Source of the DNA: an uncultured Gammaproteobacteria bacterium
GTDB taxonomy: Bacteria > Patescibacteriota > Patescibacteriia > S139-126
Length of the DNA: 64,000 nt
Reading direction: 5' to 3'
Assembly (NCBI GenBank): GCA_964620905.1
Contig: CAZUKA010000001.1
Location: forward strand, 298,589 to 362,588
Part shown: positions 33,546-63,063 of the stretch, in pieces
How the letters are laid out: every line of letters starts with the position of its first letter
Position numbering within the stretch: the first letter of the stretch is position 1
Notes under the pieces: model-generated
The model's input: the letters and a program-made list of their open reading frames with translations, nothing else
Database searches by the model: none
What the model was told of the DNA's origin: nothing
Program-made: the position numbers and the translations under genes

Positions 33546-34988
33546 ATGATGTCTACAACTTTAAAAAATAGTCTGGGTAGAATACTGGCCCAACGCTTAT
33601 TTTGGCGCTTAATGCCAATAATCGCTCTGGCTATAACTTCAGTCGCTCAAGCTGCAACTGAAGAAGGTGGAGCTGGTCATAGTGCAGCTTTTACTTTTCT
33701 TTGGATCGCGGTAATTTTAATTGCCGCCAAGATTTCTGGCCTGGTAGAACGCTGGGGACAGCCTTCTGTGCTTGGCGAATTAGTAATTGGTGTTATTATC
33801 GGTAACTTAGCGCTCCTTGGCCTCCACTGGTTTGAACCAATCAAAGCAGACCCAATTATTGCTTTTTTAGCTGAACTCGGGGTAGTTATTTTGCTATTTC
33901 AAATTGGTCTTGAATCAAATATCGCCAAGATGAAACAAGTAGGTATGCGCGCCTTTATGGTCGCTACTATTGGAGTTGTAGCACCGTTTATACTGGGTAC
34001 CTATGTAATCGGACCATGGCTCATGCCGGGCTTAGAATTTAATGCGTATTTATTTTTAGGAGCAACCTTAACTGCTACTTCGGTCGGTATTACTGCCCGA
34101 GTATTTAAAGATTTAAAAAAATTGCAAATACCAGAAGCACAAATCGTGCTAGGAGCCGCTGTAATTGATGACGTAATGGGACTTATTATCTTAGCCGTTG
34201 TGTCAGCCATAGTCACGGTTGGAAGCGTTGGTATTGGTATGATTACTTGGATTACAGCCAAAGCTATTTTATTTTTAGTACTCGCAGTTGTTATTGGCCA
34301 GCTCCTTGCGCCACAACTTGGTAAATGGTTTGCCAAAATACATACTGGCATAGGTATGAAACTTACCCTTGCGCTCGCATTTGGACTTATTACTGCCTTT
34401 TTAGCTCAAGTAATAGGACTTGCTCCAATCGTTGGGGCATTTGCTGCTGGTTTAGTCTTAGATCCTGTGCACTTTAAATTTTTCAAAGATCCACAAATTG
34501 TTGAAGATATAAAAGAATCATTAAAGGAATCAACTGATCAAACTCTGAAAGAAAAAGTAGATAAAGTAATGGAACATCATTCACATCGTCATATTGAAGA
34601 TCTAATAGAACCAATTGGTTTTTTCTTAGTCCCTCTTTTCTTTGTCTATACTGGCATTAATGTAAAATTAGAAACCATGTTTGATCTGCCGGTACTCCTA
34701 GTAGCACTTGGCGTAACCGCAGCTGCGTTTATTGGTAAAATAGTATCTGGTCTTGCAGCTGGTAAAGTCAATAAATGGCTAGTAGGCTTTGGTATGATCC
34801 CCAGAGGTGAGGTTGGCTTAATTTTTGCTGTAATTGGTAAATCACTTGGTGTGGTAAATGATGAAGTATTTTCTATTGTGGTTATCATGGTCATACTCAC
34901 AACCCTTGCTACCCCACCGATACTTACCTACTTATTGAAAAAGCAAGATAAAAAATTACCTACCCCAGAACCTGAAACTATAAAATAA
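33546..34988 (+). CDS. Monovalent cation:proton antiporter (Na+/H+ exchanger family, CPA)
   Basis: 480 aa with about 12 TM helices and typical CPA blocks (LGELVIGVIIGN, FLGATLTATSVGITARV, PRGEVGLIFA). Confidence 0.8.
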   Translation: MMSTTLKNSLGRILAQRLFWRLMPIIALAITSVAQAATEEGGAGHSAAFTFLWIAVILIAAKISGLVERWGQPSVLGELVIGVIIGNLALLGLHWFEPIKADPIIAFLAELGVVILLFQIGLESNIAKMKQVGMRAFMVATIGVVAPFILGTYVIGPWLMPGLEFNAYLFLGATLTATSVGITARVFKDLKKLQIPEAQIVLGAAVIDDVMGLIILAVVSAIVTVGSVGIGMITWITAKAILFLVLAVVIGQLLAPQLGKWFAKIHTGIGMKLTLALAFGLITAFLAQVIGLAPIVGAFAAGLVLDPVHFKFFKDPQIVEDIKESLKESTDQTLKEKVDKVMEHHSHRHIEDLIEPIGFFLVPLFFVYTGINVKLETMFDLPVLLVALGVTAAAFIGKIVSGLAAGKVNKWLVGFGMIPRGEVGLIFAVIGKSLGVVNDEVFSIVVIMVILTTLATPPILTYLLKKQDKKLPTPEPETIK

Positions 34989-35002
34989 TATTCGTACTAA
35001 AA

Positions 35003-35023
35003 ATCCCGCCATTTTGGCGGGAT
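35003..35023. terminator. Bidirectional intrinsic terminator between convergent genes
   Basis: ATCCCGCC-atttt-GGCGGGAT hairpin flanked by A-runs and T-runs. Confidence 0.7.
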
Positions 35024-35024
35024 T

Positions 35025-36389
35025 TTATTTTATTTTTTTTATAATCCCCTTATTGGCGTCAACCTCTACTATATCTCGATCTTTAAATACTTTGCTTGCA
35101 AATTGAGTGCCCACTATACAGGGTTTTTTATATTCCCGCGCTATTATCGCAGCATGGCTTGTTAAACCGCCATCATCTGTCACAACTGCTTTGGCTTTAA
35201 GCATATAAGGAGTAAATACTGGATAGGTAAACTTAGCAACAAAAATATCTTTACTAGTTACTTTCATCAAATCTTTTTCATTTGCTATAATTTTTACTAT
35301 TCCCCTTACTTTACCCTGACAAGCAACACTACCTTTAACTATTGTATTTTTATCATGGGAACTTATTTTGTTTAACCATTCACTATTATTTGCATTAGAA
35401 ATAAAATATATGCAATTTTTTTCATAGTAATATGCGTATAACCCTTTGGTGCGCAATTTTAACTCTTTTAAATCTGGCCTTATATCTAACTGCAAATAAC
35501 TAAAACCTTCTTTAATAGTCATATTCGTTGCATCACGCAAAGAAATACCTAACTGTTTAGCTAAATACTCATAAAAAGGCCGCGCATAAAATTGCCCTTG
35601 TTTCCACACATCTACTCTGTCAGTTTTTAGCCACACAAATTCACGGGCTATTTCAATTTTTTGCTTTAACTTTTTATCTTTAATAGTTTCAATAAAATTA
35701 GAAAAATCTTTTTTTGATTTAGCAAAATTTTTATATTGATCAAGAATTATATTTTTGTTTAACTTTTTACGTAAAGTAAAAAAATATTTTTTATCATAGG
35801 ACTCTTCAAATGGATTATAGGCATTTAACCAACCATATTTTTTTACTAATACTTTGTCAGATAAACGAAATATATCTTTTTCCATTTTCATATATTCAAT
35901 CGGCCTATTTAGAGAAAATATAACATCCACTTTATCTGGATACTTGCTTATTATTTCTGGTTCATAAATATAAATTGCTGACCACGCTCCCCAAATATAA
36001 TCACAAAAATCATACGCACTTTGCAAATACTCACCATAACTTTTGCTAATGGCTTTTTTATTTTTCTTTTGCGATACTTGACCTAAAATTTTAGCTTTTT
36101 TTATTAAATCATTTTTCTTAGGTACATACTTTTCCAAATAGGTATACCAATTTTTACTCATTTCTTTTCCCAAAATAGTCAAAGTATTCTGATTTGATTG
36201 GGGTTCAAAATAATAGCTAAATACTTTACCATCAGGTACAACTATAAAACTTTTTACCCCCTTGTCTACAATCCAAGATACCCACACTTCGACTCTTGCA
36301 ATACAATCTACTCGCGAAGTAAAATACTCAAATTGCTCTTTGGGTAACGTGATTGAATTATATATATTTTTATATGGATTAAATTTCAT
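35025..36389 (-). CDS. PEP-utilizing-enzyme mobile (phosphohistidine swivel) domain protein, paralog B; N-terminal 350 aa unassigned
   Basis: C-terminus GIVKII..TSKDIFVAKFTYPVFTPYMLKAKAVVTDDGGLTSHAAIIAREYKKPCIVG matches the PEP-utilizers His domain (GGxxxHAAIIAREx.iPcvvG). The start codon overlaps the stop of the upstream paralog (TAATG). Confidence 0.7.
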   Translation of the reverse strand: MKFNPYKNIYNSITLPKEQFEYFTSRVDCIARVEVWVSWIVDKGVKSFIVVPDGKVFSYYFEPQSNQNTLTILGKEMSKNWYTYLEKYVPKKNDLIKKAKILGQVSQKKNKKAISKSYGEYLQSAYDFCDYIWGAWSAIYIYEPEIISKYPDKVDVIFSLNRPIEYMKMEKDIFRLSDKVLVKKYGWLNAYNPFEESYDKKYFFTLRKKLNKNIILDQYKNFAKSKKDFSNFIETIKDKKLKQKIEIAREFVWLKTDRVDVWKQGQFYARPFYEYLAKQLGISLRDATNMTIKEGFSYLQLDIRPDLKELKLRTKGLYAYYYEKNCIYFISNANNSEWLNKISSHDKNTIVKGSVACQGKVRGIVKIIANEKDLMKVTSKDIFVAKFTYPVFTPYMLKAKAVVTDDGGLTSHAAIIAREYKKPCIVGTQFASKVFKDRDIVEVDANKGIIKKIK

Positions 36390-37486
36390 TATATTTTTTT
36401 GATAATTCCTTTATCCGCATTAAGCTCTAGCATATCTCCATTTTTAAATACTTTAGTAGCAAATTTTGTTCCAATTATACAGGGCTTTTTAAGCTCACGC
36501 GCAATAATAGCTGCGTGACATAAAATACCTCCTTCATCAGTAATAATACCAGCACTTCTTTTTAACAAAGACATTAAATCTGGGTGTGTCATAGAAGCAA
36601 CTACAATATACTTATATGCTGGTGTATTACACTTACCCATATTACTGATTAAATAAGCCTTAGCTGTAACATTTCCTTTATAAATAGATATTCCTTCGAG
36701 TTCATTCACCCGATCGATCTTCGGCCATAAATAATTATGTATTTTATTTAAATCACCTGACTTATATAAAACTTGTTCCTTTTTACCATAGTGCAAAAAA
36801 AAATATTTCTTTTTCCTTACTTGGTATAAACTCATTACCTGTTTAATATTTAACTTTTTTCTAAGAAATTGTAAGAATTCTCTACGAGTTAGATAACATA
36901 AAGCATCACCATTAAATTTATTATTAATACTCAACCCTTGAGCAGCTCTACTTAATAATTTTTCAAATAAAACATATTGTTTTGCTACTTCGTTTCTTTC
37001 ATTACCTATTCTTACGACCATTTTACTCGATATGATATTGGTTTTATTTTGGAAAAGTCTAAAAAAACAATTATAAATTGCAATAGCAAAATGAATATCG
37101 ATGGAATACTTATATAATAACCCCAGAGTTTTAAAATATTTTTTATTATTTAAAGATTTTTCAATGGTAGATAAATGTAATTTATTTGATTTATATAATA
37201 TATAAGCTTTTTTTAAAACAATATCAACTTTTTTGTTTGCATCACTTTTTAAATAATTTGAAAGCTTTTGGCGTAAATCATCTTCATTTACAAGCGAATA
37301 AATATCTCCTCCTTTTCCAAACGCACCAAGCGCATTATAACCAAAACCAAATATTTTTTTCAGCCTTACCAAATAAGCCTGAGATAAACTACTCATGGTA
37401 TACAATGAGAGGTCTCGACGAATTGAAGGATGTAAACCGAGTTCTTTTAATTTTCTTATTACTTTTTCTACTTTATTTTTTTTCAT
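36389..37486 (-). CDS. PEP-utilizing-enzyme mobile (phosphohistidine swivel) domain protein, paralog A; N-terminal 270 aa unassigned
   Basis: C-terminus AKAYLI...YKYIVVASMTHPDLMSLLKRSAGIITDEGGILCHAAIIARELKKPCIIG..GDMLELNADKGIIKKI, and the same ...DANKGIIKKI tail as paralog B. Lies 6 nt downstream of the helicase gene. Confidence 0.7.
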   Translation of the reverse strand: MKKNKVEKVIRKLKELGLHPSIRRDLSLYTMSSLSQAYLVRLKKIFGFGYNALGAFGKGGDIYSLVNEDDLRQKLSNYLKSDANKKVDIVLKKAYILYKSNKLHLSTIEKSLNNKKYFKTLGLLYKYSIDIHFAIAIYNCFFRLFQNKTNIISSKMVVRIGNERNEVAKQYVLFEKLLSRAAQGLSINNKFNGDALCYLTRREFLQFLRKKLNIKQVMSLYQVRKKKYFFLHYGKKEQVLYKSGDLNKIHNYLWPKIDRVNELEGISIYKGNVTAKAYLISNMGKCNTPAYKYIVVASMTHPDLMSLLKRSAGIITDEGGILCHAAIIARELKKPCIIGTKFATKVFKNGDMLELNADKGIIKKI

Positions 37487-37492
37487 ATCATA

Positions 37493-40400
37493 TTACTTCG
37501 CCTGCGAAAATTCGCAAATCTTATTAAAATCACAATGTGCGCAAATAAACGGATTGGGGCTAGGAATGAAATTGTTTTGTTTAATCTGTTCAATAGTAGC
37601 TAAAATATCCTGCTTCATTTCAGCTAGTTCTTTATCCGTACCAATAAAACTTAATTTTTTACCATCATCCAAATAATAATAAGTCAGATTTTTGACATTT
37701 TTTTCACCGATTTGTTGAGCTGCCAATTGATAAATCAGTAGCTGTTTTTTGTTGTCCTTATCCAGTTTTTCTTTAGAACTTCCGGTCTTATAATCAATAA
37801 TCTCTAAACTATTATCTGCCAATCTATCTACTCGATCAATCCGACCGGTTAGTTGCCAGTCATCTATTTTTAAATTAAATTTACTTTCCAATCTTTCCGG
37901 GATTACTTTTTCTTTTTCCCAGTTGTCATAAAAATTTTTCAAAGCCTCTTTGCCCTTTTGATAATACTGTTCTTTTTGTTTTTTACTTTCATACCAGTCA
38001 TCTAACCAACACTCATCATAAATTCTCAGCATATTATCAAGGGTTGGCAAATTATTTTTTATAATTGATTTATCAAATAAGTCTGCTTGTCGTAATGATG
38101 TTGCCAATTTTACTTGTTCAAAAAACTTTTGCATAGTCTGATGCATAGTAGTGCCATAACTGAAAGTAAATTTCCCTCGTACCGGAATACGCAAGATATA
38201 AGCAAACTTATACTGCAAAGGACAAGCCTGATAAGAACTAATTTGACTATAGGAAAAAACTTTTGGCGTCGGAAAATTGTAAGCTTTTGCCAATGATTTT
38301 TTGTCTATCCTAATTGTCTTAACTGGTGATAATATTTTTTTAACATTATCAGTTGCTTTAACTGATTTTTCTTTTATCTCTCTTACCAATCCCAATTCAT
38401 ATAAAAACTGACTGGGTTTTTTCTCGCGTACTCCCCCATAATCTTTAGCACCAGATAAAAATAAACCCAATTTTGATCTAGTAATTGCTACATACAATAA
38501 ACGTCTTTCTTCCTGCAAATGTGCATCTCCTTCGGGTAAGATATCTTTGATTAGTTTATCAGGCAAAAGAATTGGTTCTTTTCTTTCTGTGGTTGGAAAT
38601 CTTTTATCTACTAAATTTGGTATAAACACGTATTTAAACTCCAATCCTTTGGCACCATGAATGGTCATTATGCTAACGGTTTCTGGTCCACTACTTGGAT
38701 CCCAAATCATCTTACCCTGTTCTCCAGCATCCAACTCCATTTCCATTTCTATCAAGAAATCCCTCACTTGATTGTCACTAAAACTTTTTTCAAACTCTTT
38801 GGCTTTTTGCAAAAATTGGTTTATATAATTGATATTAGCTTGGGCTTTCTCTGAATCTATCTTGGTCAAATACTGACTATAACCAGTATCTTCTAAAAAA
38901 GATAAAATGACTTTGGTAATTGGTTTACTTTTAGCAATTTGAGTATGTTTATCAATCCAACCCAAAAGCTTACTAACCTCGGTTGTAGTTTGGGGAGATA
39001 CATTTTTTAAAAAAGAAATATTGTTTAGAGTTTCAAACAATGACCAATTTTTTCGATTGGTCCAATAATTCAAATTAATAATTTGCGATTGTTCTATATG
39101 TAAAATCGGTAAATTTAACATTCGATACAACGCCGGCGATTCGTGATAATTATCAAGCAAACGTAAATAATTGATAATATCCAAAATAATTGGCTTAAAA
39201 TAAAGCCCACGAGAAGCAAAAAACTGAAAAGGTATCTGCCGGCTTTCCAACTCTTGAATAAACTCTTTAGCGCTGTCATTGGCCCGAACTAAAATTGCCA
39301 AATCATTCCAAGTCAAATCAGAATCTTTTTCCTTTAAACTGGCAATCTTATCAACCACGCTCGCGACCTCTTGTTCTAAAGAATCATATAAATCAAAGAC
39401 AATCTCACCGGGTTTATTTGATTGAGCGGTCAATTTTTTTGATAAATTTTTCTTATGGTCATTTAATTTTACTTCCAATCTATCTGGGTTGTTGAGTTGA
39501 ATAAAGTTATATGCCAAATCCAAAATATTCTGACTACTACGATAATTGGCTTGTAAAAAAACTTCCTGACTCTGCGGAAAATCTTTTTTGAAATTTAAAA
39601 TATTAGATACTGACGCGCCCCGAAATTTATAAATAGATTGGTCATCATCACCAACCACAGTAATATTGTTTTTTGGTTGTGCTAGCAATTTTATCAGTTC
39701 GTATTGTGCCCAATTGGTATCCTGAAACTCATCGACTAGAATATATTTAAATTGTTGTTGATAATATTGAAGAATTCTTGTTCTGGTTTTAAATAACTTT
39801 AAAGTATAGTTGATTAAATCACCAAAATCCAATGAATTATTGGCAAGTAATATCTGCTGATAAATATGATAGGCAGTGGCCACTTCATTTAACCTGCTTA
39901 TTTCTTGTTCATTAACTTCATTATTTGTACCCTTAATTCTTAATTCTTTATTCTTAATTCTAGCCTTTCCCTTACTCCCCTCCATATCATCAAGGTTTAT
40001 TTTCAGTTCCTCAGCATAAGCTAAATAATCAACCGGATAAATTTCCTCGTCTTTACAACGAGAAAAATGCTGTAATAATGCATGGATAAATTTGGTAGGA
40101 TTACCCAAGGGCGCATAATAATCAAGCAAAAACTTATCTAGATTTTTTCTTATCAACAGCCAACTTTGCGTCTGATCTAATAGTTTAAAATTGGTTGACA
40201 GACCTATATCCAAAGCGTGTAGATGTAAAACTCTCTCACAAAAAGCATGAAAAGTGGAAATCCACAAATCTACATAACCATAAGGCAAAGCTCTATCCAC
40301 CCGCTCTTCCATCTCCCCAGCGGCTTTGTCTGTAAAAGTCAGAGCTAAAATTTGATCAGCAGTTAATTTTTTTTCTTGTACCAACCAGTTTATCCGCTGA

Positions 40401-40513
40401 GTAATAACCGTAGTTTTGCCAGTACCAGCTCCAGCCACAATCAACAATGGCCCTTCACCATGAGTAACAGCTTCTTTCTGTGCTTGATTTAAACTATTAA
40501 GATTTATTTCCAT
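37493..40513 (-). CDS. UvrD/PcrA-family ATP-dependent DNA helicase fused to a C-terminal Cas4/AddB-type PD-(D/E)XK nuclease with a 4-Cys cluster
   Basis: N-terminal SF1 helicase motifs (LIVAGAGTGKTTV; VDEFQDTN; the 2B region), then a C-terminal RecB-family nuclease (GRIDRVDRL...LEIIDYKTG) with Cys at YQACPLQ and CAHCDFNKIC. 1006 aa. Confidence 0.9.
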   Translation of the reverse strand: MEINLNSLNQAQKEAVTHGEGPLLIVAGAGTGKTTVITQRINWLVQEKKLTADQILALTFTDKAAGEMEERVDRALPYGYVDLWISTFHAFCERVLHLHALDIGLSTNFKLLDQTQSWLLIRKNLDKFLLDYYAPLGNPTKFIHALLQHFSRCKDEEIYPVDYLAYAEELKINLDDMEGSKGKARIKNKELRIKGTNNEVNEQEISRLNEVATAYHIYQQILLANNSLDFGDLINYTLKLFKTRTRILQYYQQQFKYILVDEFQDTNWAQYELIKLLAQPKNNITVVGDDDQSIYKFRGASVSNILNFKKDFPQSQEVFLQANYRSSQNILDLAYNFIQLNNPDRLEVKLNDHKKNLSKKLTAQSNKPGEIVFDLYDSLEQEVASVVDKIASLKEKDSDLTWNDLAILVRANDSAKEFIQELESRQIPFQFFASRGLYFKPIILDIINYLRLLDNYHESPALYRMLNLPILHIEQSQIINLNYWTNRKNWSLFETLNNISFLKNVSPQTTTEVSKLLGWIDKHTQIAKSKPITKVILSFLEDTGYSQYLTKIDSEKAQANINYINQFLQKAKEFEKSFSDNQVRDFLIEMEMELDAGEQGKMIWDPSSGPETVSIMTIHGAKGLEFKYVFIPNLVDKRFPTTERKEPILLPDKLIKDILPEGDAHLQEERRLLYVAITRSKLGLFLSGAKDYGGVREKKPSQFLYELGLVREIKEKSVKATDNVKKILSPVKTIRIDKKSLAKAYNFPTPKVFSYSQISSYQACPLQYKFAYILRIPVRGKFTFSYGTTMHQTMQKFFEQVKLATSLRQADLFDKSIIKNNLPTLDNMLRIYDECWLDDWYESKKQKEQYYQKGKEALKNFYDNWEKEKVIPERLESKFNLKIDDWQLTGRIDRVDRLADNSLEIIDYKTGSSKEKLDKDNKKQLLIYQLAAQQIGEKNVKNLTYYYLDDGKKLSFIGTDKELAEMKQDILATIEQIKQNNFIPSPNPFICAHCDFNKICEFSQAK

Positions 40514-40614: not shown

Positions 40615-41043
40615 ATGAAAAGAATCAACTTAAGTAAACCAGCTAGCCAAATCTGGAGTATTGGCTTTTTTCTTTGTTTAGTTTGCACATTTATATATTT
40701 TTATTTAGTCGGTCATTCAACCGTCCCAACTATTGCTAGCCCGATTAATATAATTGAACTAATTCTAAACTACTGGATATTTTCCCTTCCTCTAAGCATA
40801 GTCGGTTTTATATTTTTTATCAGATATTATCTAATACTAAAAAGAAAATACAAATCAAACCAAAAAGAATACTTATCTATAATTTCTACTATGCTTATGC
40901 TAGCTTTATTTCCTTCAATTGTATTTGGCGCTGCTCTCCTAGAGATCACATCAAGCTATTTTGCTTTTATTCCTACTGCTTTAATTATCGCCTGTTTGGT
41001 GATAATTAATATATTAAAAAACTTTAAACAAACCTCGTTTTAG
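40615..41043 (+). CDS. Hypothetical 4-TM small membrane protein
   Basis: 142-aa hydrophobic ORF with a promoter, an RBS and a terminator hairpin at 41031-41057. Confidence 0.45.
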   Translation: MKRINLSKPASQIWSIGFFLCLVCTFIYFYLVGHSTVPTIASPINIIELILNYWIFSLPLSIVGFIFFIRYYLILKRKYKSNQKEYLSIISTMLMLALFPSIVFGAALLEITSSYFAFIPTALIIACLVIINILKNFKQTSF

Positions 41044-41057
41044 AAAAACGAGGTTTT
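41031..41057 (+). terminator. Intrinsic terminator
   Basis: AAACCTCGTTT-tagaa-AAACGAGGTTT hairpin (the stop codon sits in the loop) followed by a T-rich tract. Confidence 0.55.
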
Positions 41058-41084
41058 AATATAATTTTTTAATTCAAAATATGA

Positions 41085-41113
41085 TTGACAAAATCCCAAA
41101 AATGTGCTATCAT
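41085..41113 (+). promoter_or_regulatory. Sigma70-like promoter (ATGATTGACAAAA...TGcTATCAT)
   Basis: TTGACA at 41085-41090, a 17-nt spacer, extended -10 TGcTATCAT at 41105-41113. Confidence 0.5.
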
Positions 41114-41157
41114 TCTAAATTAGTAGTTATTTAAAATCAACAAAAAAAGGACAAAAA

Positions 41158-41448
41158 ATGAAAGATTTCATTCTTTCTATAATAATCATTTTTGGACTAT
41201 TTAGTATAGTCTATCTGATGTCAATTATTTTTGTAATTTTCTTAATCATTGCCTGGGCTCTCCTGGGCACAACAAGTTCTCTCTTTATGGGAGATTTAAA
41301 TTCTTTTCTTATATTTAATAAACAAAATCCTGCACTTATATATATTGCAGCCGGGTTTTCCTTTTTATTTATCGCTTACAAAGCGATACATGAAAAAAAT
41401 AAAAAGAAAAGAAACTTTCGCGGTACATTTATCCGCGGACAAAAATAA
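41158..41448 (+). CDS. Hypothetical 3-TM small membrane protein
   Basis: 96 aa with RBS AAAGGA. Followed by tandem terminators. Confidence 0.45.
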   Translation: MKDFILSIIIIFGLFSIVYLMSIIFVIFLIIAWALLGTTSSLFMGDLNSFLIFNKQNPALIYIAAGFSFLFIAYKAIHEKNKKKRNFRGTFIRGQK

Positions 41449-61272: not shown

Positions 61273-61770
61273 ATGAAAAAAAATTCAAAACCAACAAATA
61301 AATTGCGAGTCGGTTGGTTCACTTTTAGTTGCTGCGAAGACAGCACTGTGCTCTTTACTGAACTTCTGAATGATCATTGGCAAGACTGGTTGCCTTATTT
61401 AGATTTTAAACACGCCAAAGTATTACAATCACGCAATGTCCTAACCGATATGGATGTGGCCTTTGTTGAAGGTGCGATTGCATCTCAAGAAAAAGAAAAA
61501 GAGTTAAAAAAAATTAGAGCCAAAACCAAAGTCTTAGTAGCAATCGGCGCCTGTGCAGTTACCGGCATGCCATCTGCTCAACGCAACGAATTTCCTGAAG
61601 AGGTTAGACAGGAAATTGATTTTTTACTCACCAAATTCAATTATGGTGATCAAGTAAAAAAACTTGAGGAACTAGTAAAAGTTGATGCCAAAGTTCCCGG
61701 TTGTCCTATGAACGAACAAAAGTTTGTTGAACTTATGGAAGAAATGTTTAAACAATTTAATATAAAATAA
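61273..61770 (+). CDS. [NiFe] hydrogenase small subunit, group-3b-like (HydD/delta-like), truncated to the proximal-cluster domain
   Basis: KLRVGWFTFSCCEDS, VAFVEGAIAS, KVLVAIGACAVTGMP, KVDAKVPGCPM align with the N-terminal half of sulfhydrogenase delta/NuoB-like small subunits. There are 4 Cys only, and 165 aa. Confidence 0.75.
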   Translation: MKKNSKPTNKLRVGWFTFSCCEDSTVLFTELLNDHWQDWLPYLDFKHAKVLQSRNVLTDMDVAFVEGAIASQEKEKELKKIRAKTKVLVAIGACAVTGMPSAQRNEFPEEVRQEIDFLLTKFNYGDQVKKLEELVKVDAKVPGCPMNEQKFVELMEEMFKQFNIK

Positions 61771-63063
61771 ATGCACCTTATTGACTTTGATTTAAATATC
61801 AATGAAATCACCAAAGTAGAAGGATCAGCGGGACTTGATGTCAAAGTTACTGGTGGTAAAGTCGAGTATGTAAAATTTAAAGTTCAAGACTATAAAAGAT
61901 TTTATACTCAAGCTATCCAAGGAAAGCCAATTGCTGCTGTCCCTCAACTCTTATCCAGAATTTGTGGCACCTGTAGTATCGCCCATCTAATTGCCAGTAT
62001 TGAAGCCGTAGAAAAAACTTTAGGTTATCAGCCCACTCCGCAAACAAAAATTCTTCGCGATCTTACCTATCACGGATTGATTATTAGAGACCACGCTCTT
62101 CATCTTTATGTTTTTGTTCTGCCAGATTTATTTAATAAAGATTCTTTACTTGAATTTGATGAAACCGACAAATTACAACACCAGCTTCTCCATGATACTT
62201 TTGCTGTCAAAAGTGTTGGCAACAACTTAGCTAAATATACCGCCGGGCGTAGTGTCCATGCGCCATTCCCAGTACCCGGAGGATTTTTAAAAATTCCTGA
62301 CAATCAAGGTAAAACTGCTTTGCTTGAAGAAATGGAAAAAGTTAGACCAGCAGTTTTGAGGTTAATCGAGCTATTTTTAAATTCTACTGACACTCTGATT
62401 CGCCCAACCAACTACGCAGCATTAACCAGTGATAATTATTCATACCTTGAAGGTAAGCTTAGCGATCTCAATGGCGTTATCGCCGAAGAAGCAGAATTTC
62501 GCAATCACCTGGAACATGTAGTACTACCTTATTCCCAAGCTTCTGCTTATACCTTTGCTGGTCAACCCTACCGCGTGGGAGCGCTGGCTAGAATAAATCT
62601 GAACCAACAAGCCCTAAACCACCGAACCAAAAGAGATTGTAGTCAGGCTCTACAAGTCTTTCCTTCTCATAATGCTTACCACAACAACTTAGCCCAAGCT
62701 ATTGAAATCTTACACTCTATTGACGACACTATTGACCTTTTGAAATCAAATAATTTTCAACCGGAAAAACCAAATAAACTCGATATCAGACAAGCCACTG
62801 GCGTAGGTGTAGTAGAAGCTCCTAGGGGAACACTTTATCATAAACTTGAAATTGATGAAAAAGGAATAGTTACTAAAGGTGAAGTAATAGTACCAACTGG
62901 CCAAAATCAAATTACTATTGAACTTGATATTGCTGAATACATCCAAAAAAATCTTGACCAACCAAAAAAAGAGCTGGCTTTAGCTTGTGAAAAAATTATC
63001 CGTGCTTATGACCCCTGTATGAGCTGCGCTTCTCATTTTTTGGAAGTTAATTGGTTAGAATAG
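61771..63063 (+). CDS. [NiFe] hydrogenase large subunit (group 3-like, 430 aa)
   Basis: N-terminal L1 motif RICGTCSIAH and C-terminal L2 motif DPCMSCASH, followed by an 8-residue extension (FLEVNWLE). The ATG directly follows the small-subunit TAA. Confidence 0.9.
   Translation: MHLIDFDLNINEITKVEGSAGLDVKVTGGKVEYVKFKVQDYKRFYTQAIQGKPIAAVPQLLSRICGTCSIAHLIASIEAVEKTLGYQPTPQTKILRDLTYHGLIIRDHALHLYVFVLPDLFNKDSLLEFDETDKLQHQLLHDTFAVKSVGNNLAKYTAGRSVHAPFPVPGGFLKIPDNQGKTALLEEMEKVRPAVLRLIELFLNSTDTLIRPTNYAALTSDNYSYLEGKLSDLNGVIAEEAEFRNHLEHVVLPYSQASAYTFAGQPYRVGALARINLNQQALNHRTKRDCSQALQVFPSHNAYHNNLAQAIEILHSIDDTIDLLKSNNFQPEKPNKLDIRQATGVGVVEAPRGTLYHKLEIDEKGIVTKGEVIVPTGQNQITIELDIAEYIQKNLDQPKKELALACEKIIRAYDPCMSCASHFLEVNWLE

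What the first reader, a model, noticed from the sequence alone, without database searches (positions are those of the whole stretch)
35025..37486. Tandem paralogs ending in an identical His-swivel tail but with divergent, unassignable N-terminal regions
Both proteins end ...(E/D)(L/V)(N/D)A(D/N)KGIIKKI. Both keep the catalytic His context of PEP synthase / PPDK / EI / rifampin phosphotransferase. Their N-terminal 270 aa (paralog A) and 350 aa (paralog B) lack the GGK ATP-grasp signature of PPDK_N. There is no PEP-binding TIM-barrel domain in either protein or in the neighbouring genes. A swivel His domain with no partner catalytic domains is functionally unexplained.
Basis: seen in the sequence. 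Interest (0 to 1): 0.55.

Follow-up and report, generated by a model that had tools for sequence, protein, structure and literature searches.

The report
Split dikinase modules missing their ATP-grasp
The two genes encode the substrate-binding and phosphate-carrying part of rifampin-phosphotransferase-like kinases without the ATP-binding part, and they belong to a little-studied family that forms arrays of up to 11 such genes (and 8-module giant proteins) in ultrasmall CPR bacteria and DPANN archaea.

Summary
Two translationally coupled genes, A (36389-37486, minus strand, 365 aa) and B (35025-36389, minus strand, 454 aa), each end in a PEP-utilizers phosphohistidine swivel domain with the catalytic His. 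Neither has an ATP-grasp or a TIM-barrel domain.

The N-terminal regions can be assigned. High-confidence AlphaFold models match only rifampin phosphotransferase (RPH) beyond the swivel domain. This match is clear for B and partial for A. So each protein is a substrate-binding helical domain plus a swivel domain, like HpeH, CreH and PpsA of two-component dikinases.

A and B are two parallel modules. They are not two halves of one enzyme.

In 87 related loci, mostly from Patescibacteria and DPANN, such modules form arrays of 2-11 paralogs. The swivel domains are conserved (median 54% identity) and the N-domains are divergent (median 21%). A stand-alone PPDK_N ATP-grasp gene lies in 25 of the loci. 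In 18 of the 24 that could be measured, it sits within 150 nt of a module gene on the same strand. Fusions reach 3,761 aa, with one ATP-grasp and eight modules.

No ATP-grasp gene occurs in the window or in about 16 kb of extension. Its presence elsewhere in the genome is unresolved, and the substrates are unknown.

Verdict: a new variant of a known kind. Interest is moderate to high because of the array system.

The parts
36389..37486 (-). Gene A, 365 aa: helical/beta-hairpin N-domain plus C-terminal phosphohistidine swivel domain (A-type module)
36710..37486 (-). A N-domain (aa 1-259). Nearly invariant family residues: R24, R164, Y171, E203, R224
   Evidence: Alignment A1 of 66 sequences; secondary structure; residues ~194-260 align to RPH 703-766; own An HMM hit 5-259
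36392..36700 (-). A swivel domain (aa 263-365) with motif TDEGGILCH; the His324 codon is at 36515-36517
35025..36389 (-). Gene B, 454 aa: RPH-type helical substrate-binding domain plus C-terminal swivel domain (B-type module)
   Evidence: ORF; PF00391; AF2 pLDDT 92.2; Foldseek hit to RPH 5fbu, E 3.7e-13, TMq 0.57, ~560 aligned columns; orthologues at 40-47% identity in Woesearchaeota
35349..36389 (-). B N-domain (aa 1-347). Conserved residues: R26, R32, W187, Y191, T256-D-R258-x-D260 (LKTDRVD motif), E294, R313
   Evidence: Alignments A2 and A3; 1185 representative clusters carry this N-domain, some directly after a ~290-aa N-terminal extension consistent in size with a PPDK_N domain; direct PPDK_N fusion is shown in L084 and P0102
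35028..35339 (-). B swivel domain (aa 351-454) with the PEP-synthase-like motif TDDGGLTSH; the His412 codon is at 35154-35156
36387..36391 (-). TAATG junction where the stop of A overlaps the start of B (translational coupling)
35000..35026 (.). 12-bp GC-rich hairpin with T/A runs on both sides, lying between the convergent gene B and the Na+/H+ exchanger; likely a bidirectional terminator that ends the operon
37493..40513 (-). UvrD-type helicase with a PD-(D/E)XK nuclease domain. It lies 6 nt upstream of A and is probably in the same operon. This is context only: the same synteny is seen only in the close relative L001

Best explanation
A and B are two different substrate modules of split (multi-component) RPH-like ATP-dependent small-molecule dikinases. 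Each has a divergent helical substrate-binding domain and a conserved phosphohistidine swivel domain.

Inferred mechanism, by analogy with RPH, PpsAB and HpeHI: a separately encoded PPDK_N ATP-grasp protein presents ATP. The swivel His (His324 in A, His412 in B) attacks the beta-phosphate, and the gamma-phosphate is released as Pi, leaving AMP. The swivel domain then returns to its own helical domain and phosphorylates the small molecule bound there.

The tails are near-identical because all modules must dock on one common ATP-grasp charger. The N-domains diverge because each binds a different substrate.

Shown: the domain composition, the RPH-type fold, the intact catalytic His, purifying selection, the array organisation in relatives, and the linkage and fusion of such modules to a PPDK_N ATP-grasp.

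Inferred: that A and B are charged by an ATP-grasp protein encoded elsewhere in this genome, and that their targets are small molecules. The substrates are unknown. Trapping scavenged metabolites or xenobiotics by phosphorylation is the most plausible role for an organism with a reduced genome.
For: - PF00391 is the only Pfam domain, and the catalytic motif is intact.
- HpeH, CreH and PpsA have the same architecture and work with a separate ATP-grasp subunit; HpeH is an RPH homologue lacking the ATP-grasp (PMC12167813).
- In 87 related loci, 64 have at least 2 and 30 have at least 5 swivel-module genes. 311 of 317 swivel domains keep GGxxxH by the scripted motif, and one of the six misses, GGLLSH, also has it.
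- Within-locus paralogue identity is 54% (median) for swivel domains and 21% for N-domains, over 657 pairs.
- Stand-alone PPDK_N genes occur in 25 loci. All 24 measurable ones are on the same strand as module genes, and 18 lie within 150 nt of one.
- Fusions: P0102, 795 aa, is PPDK_N + B-like domain + swivel. L084, 1313 aa, is PPDK_N + 2 B-type modules. L041, 3761 aa, is PPDK_N followed first by an A-type module, with 8 PEP-utilizers domains in all, confirmed by Pfam.
- In the representatives search, about 10 of the top 150 proteins have the B N-domain starting at residue ~280-306.
- The stand-alone ATP-grasp is extremely conserved, 74-100% identity among the best 120 hits. This fits one charger serving many modules.
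- dN/dS is 0.27 for A and 0.14 for B.
Against: - No PPDK_N gene is in the 64-kb window or in about 16 kb of extensions.
- None is seen near the orthologues in close relatives L001 and L090.
- About 64% of related loci show no ATP-grasp within the sequence available.
- Whether this genome encodes one at all could not be determined.
- A and B are much shorter (365 and 454 aa) than HpeH or PpsA (about 600-700 aa) and than the RPH substrate domain. The first ~190 aa of A match only generic helical bundles.
- No substrate, phosphorylation or interaction has been demonstrated for any member of these CPR/DPANN subfamilies.
- The catalytic Arg-Glu/Lys block of RPH could not be mapped onto A or B.
Confidence: 0.6

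Rival explanations
1. A and B are ATP-grasp-independent phosphotransferases. [quoted passage not shown] The phosphate then passes to a second small molecule bound in the same helical domain, so the reaction is metabolite-to-metabolite transphosphorylation.
For: - HpeH alone catalyses phosphotransfer from 4-phosphoacetophenone to acetovanillone without HpeI (PMC12167813).
- There is no ATP-grasp gene in about 80 kb around A and B, or near the orthologues in L001 and L090.
- Most related loci show no adjacent PPDK_N.
- HAD and histidine-phosphatase genes recur inside arrays, in 10 and 8-11 loci respectively. This hints at traffic of phosphorylated metabolites.
Against: - Where context is complete, a PPDK_N gene is typically operonic with the modules or fused to them, including A-type and B-type modules.
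- Many loci are cut by contig ends, so absence from a locus is weak evidence.
- The high conservation of the swivel surface among paralogues is best explained by a shared protein partner.
Confidence: 0.17
2. A and B form a hetero-oligomeric unit, or a phosphorelay in which phosphate passes between swivel domains. They would then act on one common target and not on two separate substrates.
For: - The two genes are translationally coupled.
- A-type and B-type modules are adjacent in 8 of 11 loci that have both.
- Natural fusions of two full modules exist: P0032, P0038, and L064 with Bn-sw-An-sw.
- HpeH behaves as a dimer.
Against: - The adjacency enrichment is weak: about 10 adjacent pairs observed against about 6 expected, in loci that were selected for B.
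- B orthologues occur alone (L090, L009, L014) and A orthologues occur alone (L006, L072, L085).
- His-to-His relay between swivel domains has no precedent in this superfamily.
- No multimer model could be computed.
Confidence: 0.13
3. A and B are the two halves of an ordinary split PEP synthase, PPDK or RPH, or they are decaying remnants of such a gene.
For: - NCBIfam's best partial hits are PEP synthase and RPH models.
- Public annotations call relatives 'pyruvate, water dikinase' or 'PEP-utilizing enzyme'.
- The array has 4 genes in relative L001 but 2 here.
Against: - All NCBIfam scores are far below the cut-offs, and the hits cover only the swivel domain plus or minus ~100 residues.
- Neither protein has an ATP-grasp or a TIM barrel. 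Both are the same kind of module, so they cannot complement each other into one enzyme.
- The ORFs are intact, the His is conserved, dN/dS is 0.14-0.27, and orthologues at 82-83% identity exist.
Confidence: 0.03

Closest known systems
Two-component small-molecule dikinases: HpeHI (Rhodococcus), CreHI (Corynebacterium), PpsAB phenylphosphate synthase (Thauera)
   Same: The H/A subunit is an RPH-type substrate-binding domain plus a C-terminal swivel domain with T/SxxGGxxxH. The ATP-grasp is a separate polypeptide. The mechanism is a dikinase reaction through phospho-His (PMC12167813). A and B have the same two-domain order and the same catalytic motif. Relatives have an operonic ~312-aa PPDK_N gene.
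   Different: - A and B are 365 and 454 aa, against about 600-700 aa for the known H subunits.
- No ATP-grasp gene is adjacent here.
- The known systems are one H plus one I subunit, in aromatic catabolism of free-living bacteria. This family forms arrays of 2-11 different H-like modules per ATP-grasp in CPR and DPANN.
- The residue two positions before the His is Met in HpeH, but Leu in A and Thr in B (PEP-synthase-like).
Rifampin phosphotransferase RPH-Lm (PDB 5FBS/5FBT/5FBU/5HV1) and the RPH superfamily of small-molecule dikinases (Stogios et al. 2016, PMC4844700)
   Same: RPH is the only solved structure that matches A and B beyond the swivel domain. The swivel domain is C-terminal. The central domain evolves fast while the swivel is conserved, as described for the superfamily. 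Fused relatives (P0102, L084) have the full RPH domain order.
   Different: - RPH is a single 867-aa chain with an N-terminal ATP-grasp; A and B lack it.
- Their helical domains are about 60-80% of the size of the RIF-binding domain (427 aa).
- Identity to RPH is 14-17%.
- The RIF-binding residues and the block-9 Arg-Glu/Lys were not identified.
PigC / RedH / HapC prodiginine-condensing enzymes
   Same: NCBIfam PigC and RedH models align to the last ~200 residues of A and the last ~110 of B. These enzymes have the same ATP-grasp, helical domain and C-terminal swivel logic.
   Different: Scores of 47-59 bits are far below the cut-offs of 1300-1350. PigC-type enzymes are single ~880-aa chains in pigment biosynthesis clusters, and no such cluster is present here.
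PEP synthase / pyruvate phosphate dikinase / PTS Enzyme I
   Same: The swivel domain is homologous, with E 1e-37 to 1e-43 against archaeal PEP synthase structures 8A8E and 9DAE. B keeps the PEP-synthase-type GGxTSH motif.
   Different: A and B have no PPDK_N domain, no PEP/pyruvate TIM barrel and no HPr-binding subdomain. Similarity is confined to about 105-130 residues.

Membership tests
PEP-utilizers mobile (swivel phosphohistidine) domain, PF00391 | Pfam hit above the gathering score, with a conserved T/SxxGGxxxH catalytic His | tested here: met
   A scores 75.1 bits and B 78.0 bits against a cut-off of 23.1. His324 and His412 sit in TDEGGILCH and TDDGGLTSH.
RPH superfamily of small-molecule dikinases | Central helical substrate-binding domain homologous to the RIF-binding domain, immediately N-terminal to the swivel | tested here: met
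RPH superfamily of small-molecule dikinases | N-terminal ATP-grasp (PPDK_N) domain in the same polypeptide | tested here: not met
   No PF01326 hit and no ATP-grasp fold in A or B. It is present in fused relatives P0102, L084 and L041.
RPH superfamily of small-molecule dikinases | Catalytic Arg-Glu...Lys (block 9) in the substrate domain, contacting the transferred phosphate | not tested
   Conserved basic and acidic residues exist (A: R164, E203, R224; B: R258, D260, E294, R313). Equivalence to RPH R666/E667/K670 could not be established without model coordinates or the RPH sequence.
Two-component dikinases (HpeHI/CreHI/PpsAB type) | H-type subunit consisting of a substrate-binding domain plus a swivel domain, without an ATP-grasp | tested here: met
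   compared with the HpeH description in PMC12167813.
Two-component dikinases (HpeHI/CreHI/PpsAB type) | Cognate stand-alone ATP-grasp subunit encoded next to the H subunit | tested here: not met
   None is in the window or in ~16 kb of extensions. It is met in 25 of 87 related loci, with 18 of 24 measurable genes within 150 nt on the same strand. The rest of the genome could not be read.
Two-component dikinases (HpeHI/CreHI/PpsAB type) | ATP-dependent phosphorylation of a phenolic substrate through phospho-His | not testable with these tools
   This needs biochemistry. The substrates of A and B are unknown.
PEP synthase / PPDK | PPDK_N ATP-grasp plus swivel plus PEP-utilizers_C TIM barrel in one chain | tested here: not met
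   Only the swivel domain is present. NCBIfam scores of 71-100 bits fall far below cut-offs of 598-843.
PTS Enzyme I | HPr-binding helical subdomain plus a C-terminal PEP-binding TIM barrel | tested here: not met
   TIGR01417 scores 31-32 bits against a cut-off of 341.7, covering the swivel only. Structural matches to EI are limited to about 100 residues.

The most novel reading that the evidence does not exclude
A and B are a minimal two-gene instance of an undescribed CPR/DPANN-wide 'one charger, many modules' phosphorylation system. In it, a single ATP-grasp protein, conserved at 74-100% identity, loads phosphate onto the conserved swivel domains of up to 11 paralogous modules, or of up to 8 modules fused with it in a 3,761-aa protein. 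Each module has a different substrate pocket. This would give ultrasmall episymbionts a battery for trapping or inactivating many host-derived small molecules. The module families occur in both Patescibacteria and DPANN archaea at 40-47% identity, so the system appears to be shared across the two domains.
Probability: 0.35. Interest if true: 0.8.

Novelty: new variant of a known kind. Interest (0 to 1): 0.6.

Why it matters
CPR bacteria and DPANN archaea make up a large share of microbial diversity. They have very small genomes, and their metabolism is mostly inferred from annotation. These genes are currently labelled 'PEP-utilizing enzyme' or 'pyruvate, water dikinase', which can wrongly suggest gluconeogenic PEP synthesis.

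These reduced genomes nevertheless keep 2-11 paralogous RPH-like modules, often with one highly conserved ATP-grasp gene and with phosphatase genes nearby. That points to an important, unexplored small-molecule phosphorylation capacity, such as metabolite scavenging, xenobiotic or antibiotic inactivation, or signalling.

It also extends the recently recognised two-component dikinase subfamily (HpeHI, CreHI, PpsAB) from one-to-one pairs to one-to-many arrays and giant multi-module fusions. This gives a directly testable model: one ATP-grasp protein, a panel of modules, and a metabolite screen.

Tried and rejected
1. Split PEP synthase or PPDK halves: rejected. Both proteins are the same module type, with no ATP-grasp and no TIM barrel.

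2. Anti-phage defence component: PADLOC gives nothing significant for A, B or the stand-alone PPDK_N.

3. Search for the ATP-grasp partner:
- tblastn with a Woesearchaeota PPDK_N against the window: best E 0.57.
- Own PPDK_N HMM on all window ORFs: no hit.
- Extending the window by looking up its edge genes (L088, L089): none.
- Relatives L001 and L090: none.
- The last homologue search used a Falkowbacteria PPDK_N, hoping to spot a hit on the 716,806-bp contig. The top 120 hits, all at least 74% identical, did not include it, so the result is inconclusive.
- Looking up P0001 to name the assembly failed: it is not on record and no accession is given.

4. Sequence-level homology of the first ~180 aa of A and ~270 aa of B to each other: not detected by hhalign. 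Only the fold-level similarity stands.

5. Conserved A-B pairing: adjacency in 8 of 11 loci is only weakly above chance, so it is not used as a main argument.

6. Literature: searches for PEP-utilizing, swivel, dikinase or PF00391 together with CPR, DPANN, Patescibacteria or Nanoarchaeota found no description of these arrays. This covers open-access text only, so absence is not proof.

7. Functional link to the upstream UvrD/PD-(D/E)XK helicase: this synteny is seen only in the closest relative, so it is treated as coincidental.

Full report
**1. What is in the window**

The two ORFs exist as described. A is at 36389-37486 (minus strand, 365 aa) and B is at 35025-36389 (minus strand, 454 aa). 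The stop codon of A overlaps the start codon of B (TAATG). A begins 6 nt after the stop of a UvrD-type helicase with a PD-(D/E)XK nuclease domain (37493-40513). A strong hairpin at 35000-35026 separates B from a convergent Na+/H+ exchanger gene. Helicase, A and B are therefore probably one operon.

The window has about 33% G+C. It carries DciA, F-type ATP synthase and NiFe-hydrogenase genes. The closest homologues of A and B are unnamed metagenomic proteins, and the named relatives are Patescibacteria and DPANN archaea. The exact proteins lie on a 716,806-bp contig. This fits a CPR bacterium with a small genome.

**2. Checking the observation**

- Pfam finds only PF00391 (the PEP-utilizers mobile domain) at each C-terminus.
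- The catalytic motifs are intact: TDEGGILCH324 in A and TDDGGLTSH412 in B. The tails are ...LELNADKGIIKKI in A and ...VEVDANKGIIKKIK in B.
- BLASTP of A against B gives 33% identity over the last ~215 residues.
- Profile-profile comparison of the two families is significant only over the last 187 columns.
- There is no PPDK_N motif, Pfam hit or fold in either protein, and no TIM-barrel domain in the neighbouring genes.
- A and B are the only swivel-containing ORFs in the window, so no PEP synthase, PPDK or Enzyme I is present.

**3. The N-terminal regions can be assigned**

I built alignments of 66 full-length relatives of A and 50 of B. They gave AlphaFold2 models with mean pLDDT 93.3 and 92.2. 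Both models show small beta-hairpin elements, long helices and then the swivel sandwich. Neither shows an ATP-grasp fold.

Foldseek against the PDB puts Listeria rifampin phosphotransferase (RPH) first for both proteins. For A the best hit has E 1.5e-9. For B it has E 3.7e-13 and TM 0.57 over the whole query. Every other hit covers only the ~105-residue swivel domain.

HMM searches against PDB sequences also align A194-364 and B284-455 to RPH 700-866. That reaches 60-70 residues into the RIF-binding domain.

Both N-domains have nearly invariant charged and aromatic residues. In A these are R24, R164, Y171, E203 and R224. In B they are R26, R32, W187, Y191, R258, D260, E294 and R313. Both genes are under purifying selection against the orthologues in L001: dN/dS is 0.27 for A and 0.14 for B, and the N-domains are constrained too.

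So each protein is an RPH-type substrate-binding domain plus a swivel domain. This is the architecture described for HpeH, CreH and PpsA, the phosphocarrier subunits of two-component dikinases. Their ATP-grasp is a separate protein (HpeI, CreI or PpsB) (PMC12167813).

**4. Context from related sequences**

Both families are large and are concentrated in Patescibacteria and DPANN archaea. The B N-domain alone retrieves 1185 clusters at 50% identity.

The gene neighbourhoods show tandem runs of such genes:

- four in the close relative L001
- seven to eight in archaeal contigs L004 and L005
- six in Woesearchaeota L002, which also has a stand-alone 314-aa PPDK_N gene

I then fetched 80 loci from GTDB species-representative genomes. 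I scanned all 87 related loci with my own HMMs for the swivel domain, the A and B N-domains, and PPDK_N. Pfam checks confirmed the key cases. The results:

- 64 loci have at least 2 swivel domains and 30 have at least 5. The maximum is 11, in L059.
- 311 of 317 swivel domains keep GGxxxH by the scripted motif.
- Among paralogues in the same locus, swivel domains are 54% identical (median) and N-domains 21%, over 657 pairs.
- A stand-alone PPDK_N gene is present in 25 loci. All 24 measurable ones are on the same strand as the modules, and 18 are within 150 nt of one.
- Fusions exist. P0102 (795 aa) is PPDK_N + a B-like domain + swivel (PPDK_N from the precomputed Pfam column; sequence). L084 (1313 aa) is PPDK_N + two B-type modules. 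L050, L061 and L077 (about 1150-1250 aa) are PPDK_N + two modules. L041 (3761 aa) is PPDK_N followed first by an A-type module, with eight PEP-utilizers domains in all. L081 has at least eight swivel domains.
- The stand-alone ATP-grasp is very conserved. The best 120 relatives of a Falkowbacteria copy are all 312-328 aa, PF01326 only, and 74-100% identical. They span lineages such as Saccharimonadales.
- The most frequent other genes inside or beside arrays are HAD hydrolases (10 loci), histidine-phosphatase-superfamily proteins (8-11), TrmB regulators (7), hexapeptide transferases (5), small cytidylyltransferase-like proteins (5) and PTA_PTB (4).

Some taxonomic labels in these MAG records, such as 'uncultured Gammaproteobacteria', are automated and look unreliable.

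**5. Most likely mechanism**

It is what one expects if many modules must dock on one common ATP-grasp charger while each binds its own substrate.

By analogy with RPH, PpsAB and HpeHI, the steps would be as follows (PMC4844700, PMC12167813). The swivel His attacks the beta-phosphate of ATP held by the ATP-grasp. The gamma-phosphate is hydrolysed. The phospho-His domain then swings back onto its helical domain and phosphorylates the bound small molecule.

The fold, the catalytic motif, the selection, and the linkage and fusion to PPDK_N in relatives are shown. The charging step in this particular organism and the nature of the substrates are inferred. The HpeHI authors suggest that such dikinases trap diffusible compounds by phosphorylation. 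That would suit scavenging episymbionts, and RPH-like inactivation of host-made compounds is equally possible.

**6. What remains open**

No PPDK_N gene is in the 64-kb window, in about 16 kb of extension, or next to the orthologues in L001 and L090. I could not read the rest of the genome.

Three rivals remain:

- ATP-grasp-independent transphosphorylation. HpeH alone can do this.
- Charging by a full-length PPDK or PEP synthase.
- An A-B hetero-complex or phosphorelay. This is supported only weakly, by translational coupling, by adjacency in 8 of 11 loci, and by natural two-module fusions.

The idea that A and B are complementary halves of one ordinary enzyme is rejected.

**7. Comparison with known systems and novelty**

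A and B work like the H-type subunits of two-component RPH-like dikinases. They pass the architecture tests for that group. They fail the adjacent-ATP-grasp test in this window, and they are much shorter than the characterised subunits. They are not PEP synthase, PPDK or Enzyme I.

My literature searches found no description of multi-paralogue arrays or multi-module megaproteins of this type in CPR or DPANN.

I rate the finding a new variant of a known kind. The window's instance is a minimal two-module array. The wider system it belongs to is the interesting part.

Noticed in passing
L041:476-11761 (Woesearchaeota MAG contig JAFGGS010000004.1); also L081:1-8814: A single uninterrupted 3,761-aa ORF encodes one PPDK_N ATP-grasp followed by eight (helical domain + PEP-utilizers swivel) modules, confirmed by Pfam. 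L081 has an ORF of at least 2,937 aa with eight swivel domains.
   Followed up: partly
L029:19021-19956 and 120 homologues (P0236-P0355): The stand-alone 312-aa PPDK_N ATP-grasp proteins of Patescibacteria are unusually conserved, at 74-100% identity across the best 120 clusters. This contrasts with the highly divergent module genes next to them.
   Followed up: partly
Related loci, e.g. L080:8654-9247, L029:12510-13460, L078:11324-12358, L064:9578-10579: HAD-family hydrolases, histidine-phosphatase-superfamily proteins, TrmB regulators, hexapeptide transferases and PTA_PTB genes recur inside or beside the module arrays. This may hint at the chemistry of the substrates.
   Followed up: partly
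window 61273-63063: Small (Oxidored_q6) and large (NiFeSe_Hases) subunit genes of a [NiFe] hydrogenase, in what looks like a ~0.7-Mb CPR genome. The Pfam assignments come from the identical genes on L089.
   Followed up: no
window 33546-34988 versus L001:11374-13861: In the syntenic close relative, two further swivel-module genes (471 and 356 aa) follow the A-B pair. In the window, that position holds a convergent Na+/H+ exchanger gene. This indicates recent gain or loss of modules.
   Followed up: partly
L090 (JGI contig Ga0081425_140351, 15,482 bp): The gene order is mirrored around the B orthologue: SecDF, a sigma-70-like gene, DUF8128 and a 279-aa ORF appear on both sides in opposite orientation. 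This looks like a palindromic assembly artefact.
   Followed up: no
window 37493-40513: A 1006-aa UvrD helicase fused to a PD-(D/E)XK nuclease (AddA/PcrA-like) lies 6 nt upstream of gene A, apparently in the same operon. The same arrangement is in L001, but not in more distant relatives.
   Followed up: partly
window 40615-41448: Two small predicted membrane proteins (142 and 96 aa) with no Pfam match lie between the helicase and a putative Pro_CA_2 gene. The same pair is present in L001.
   Followed up: no
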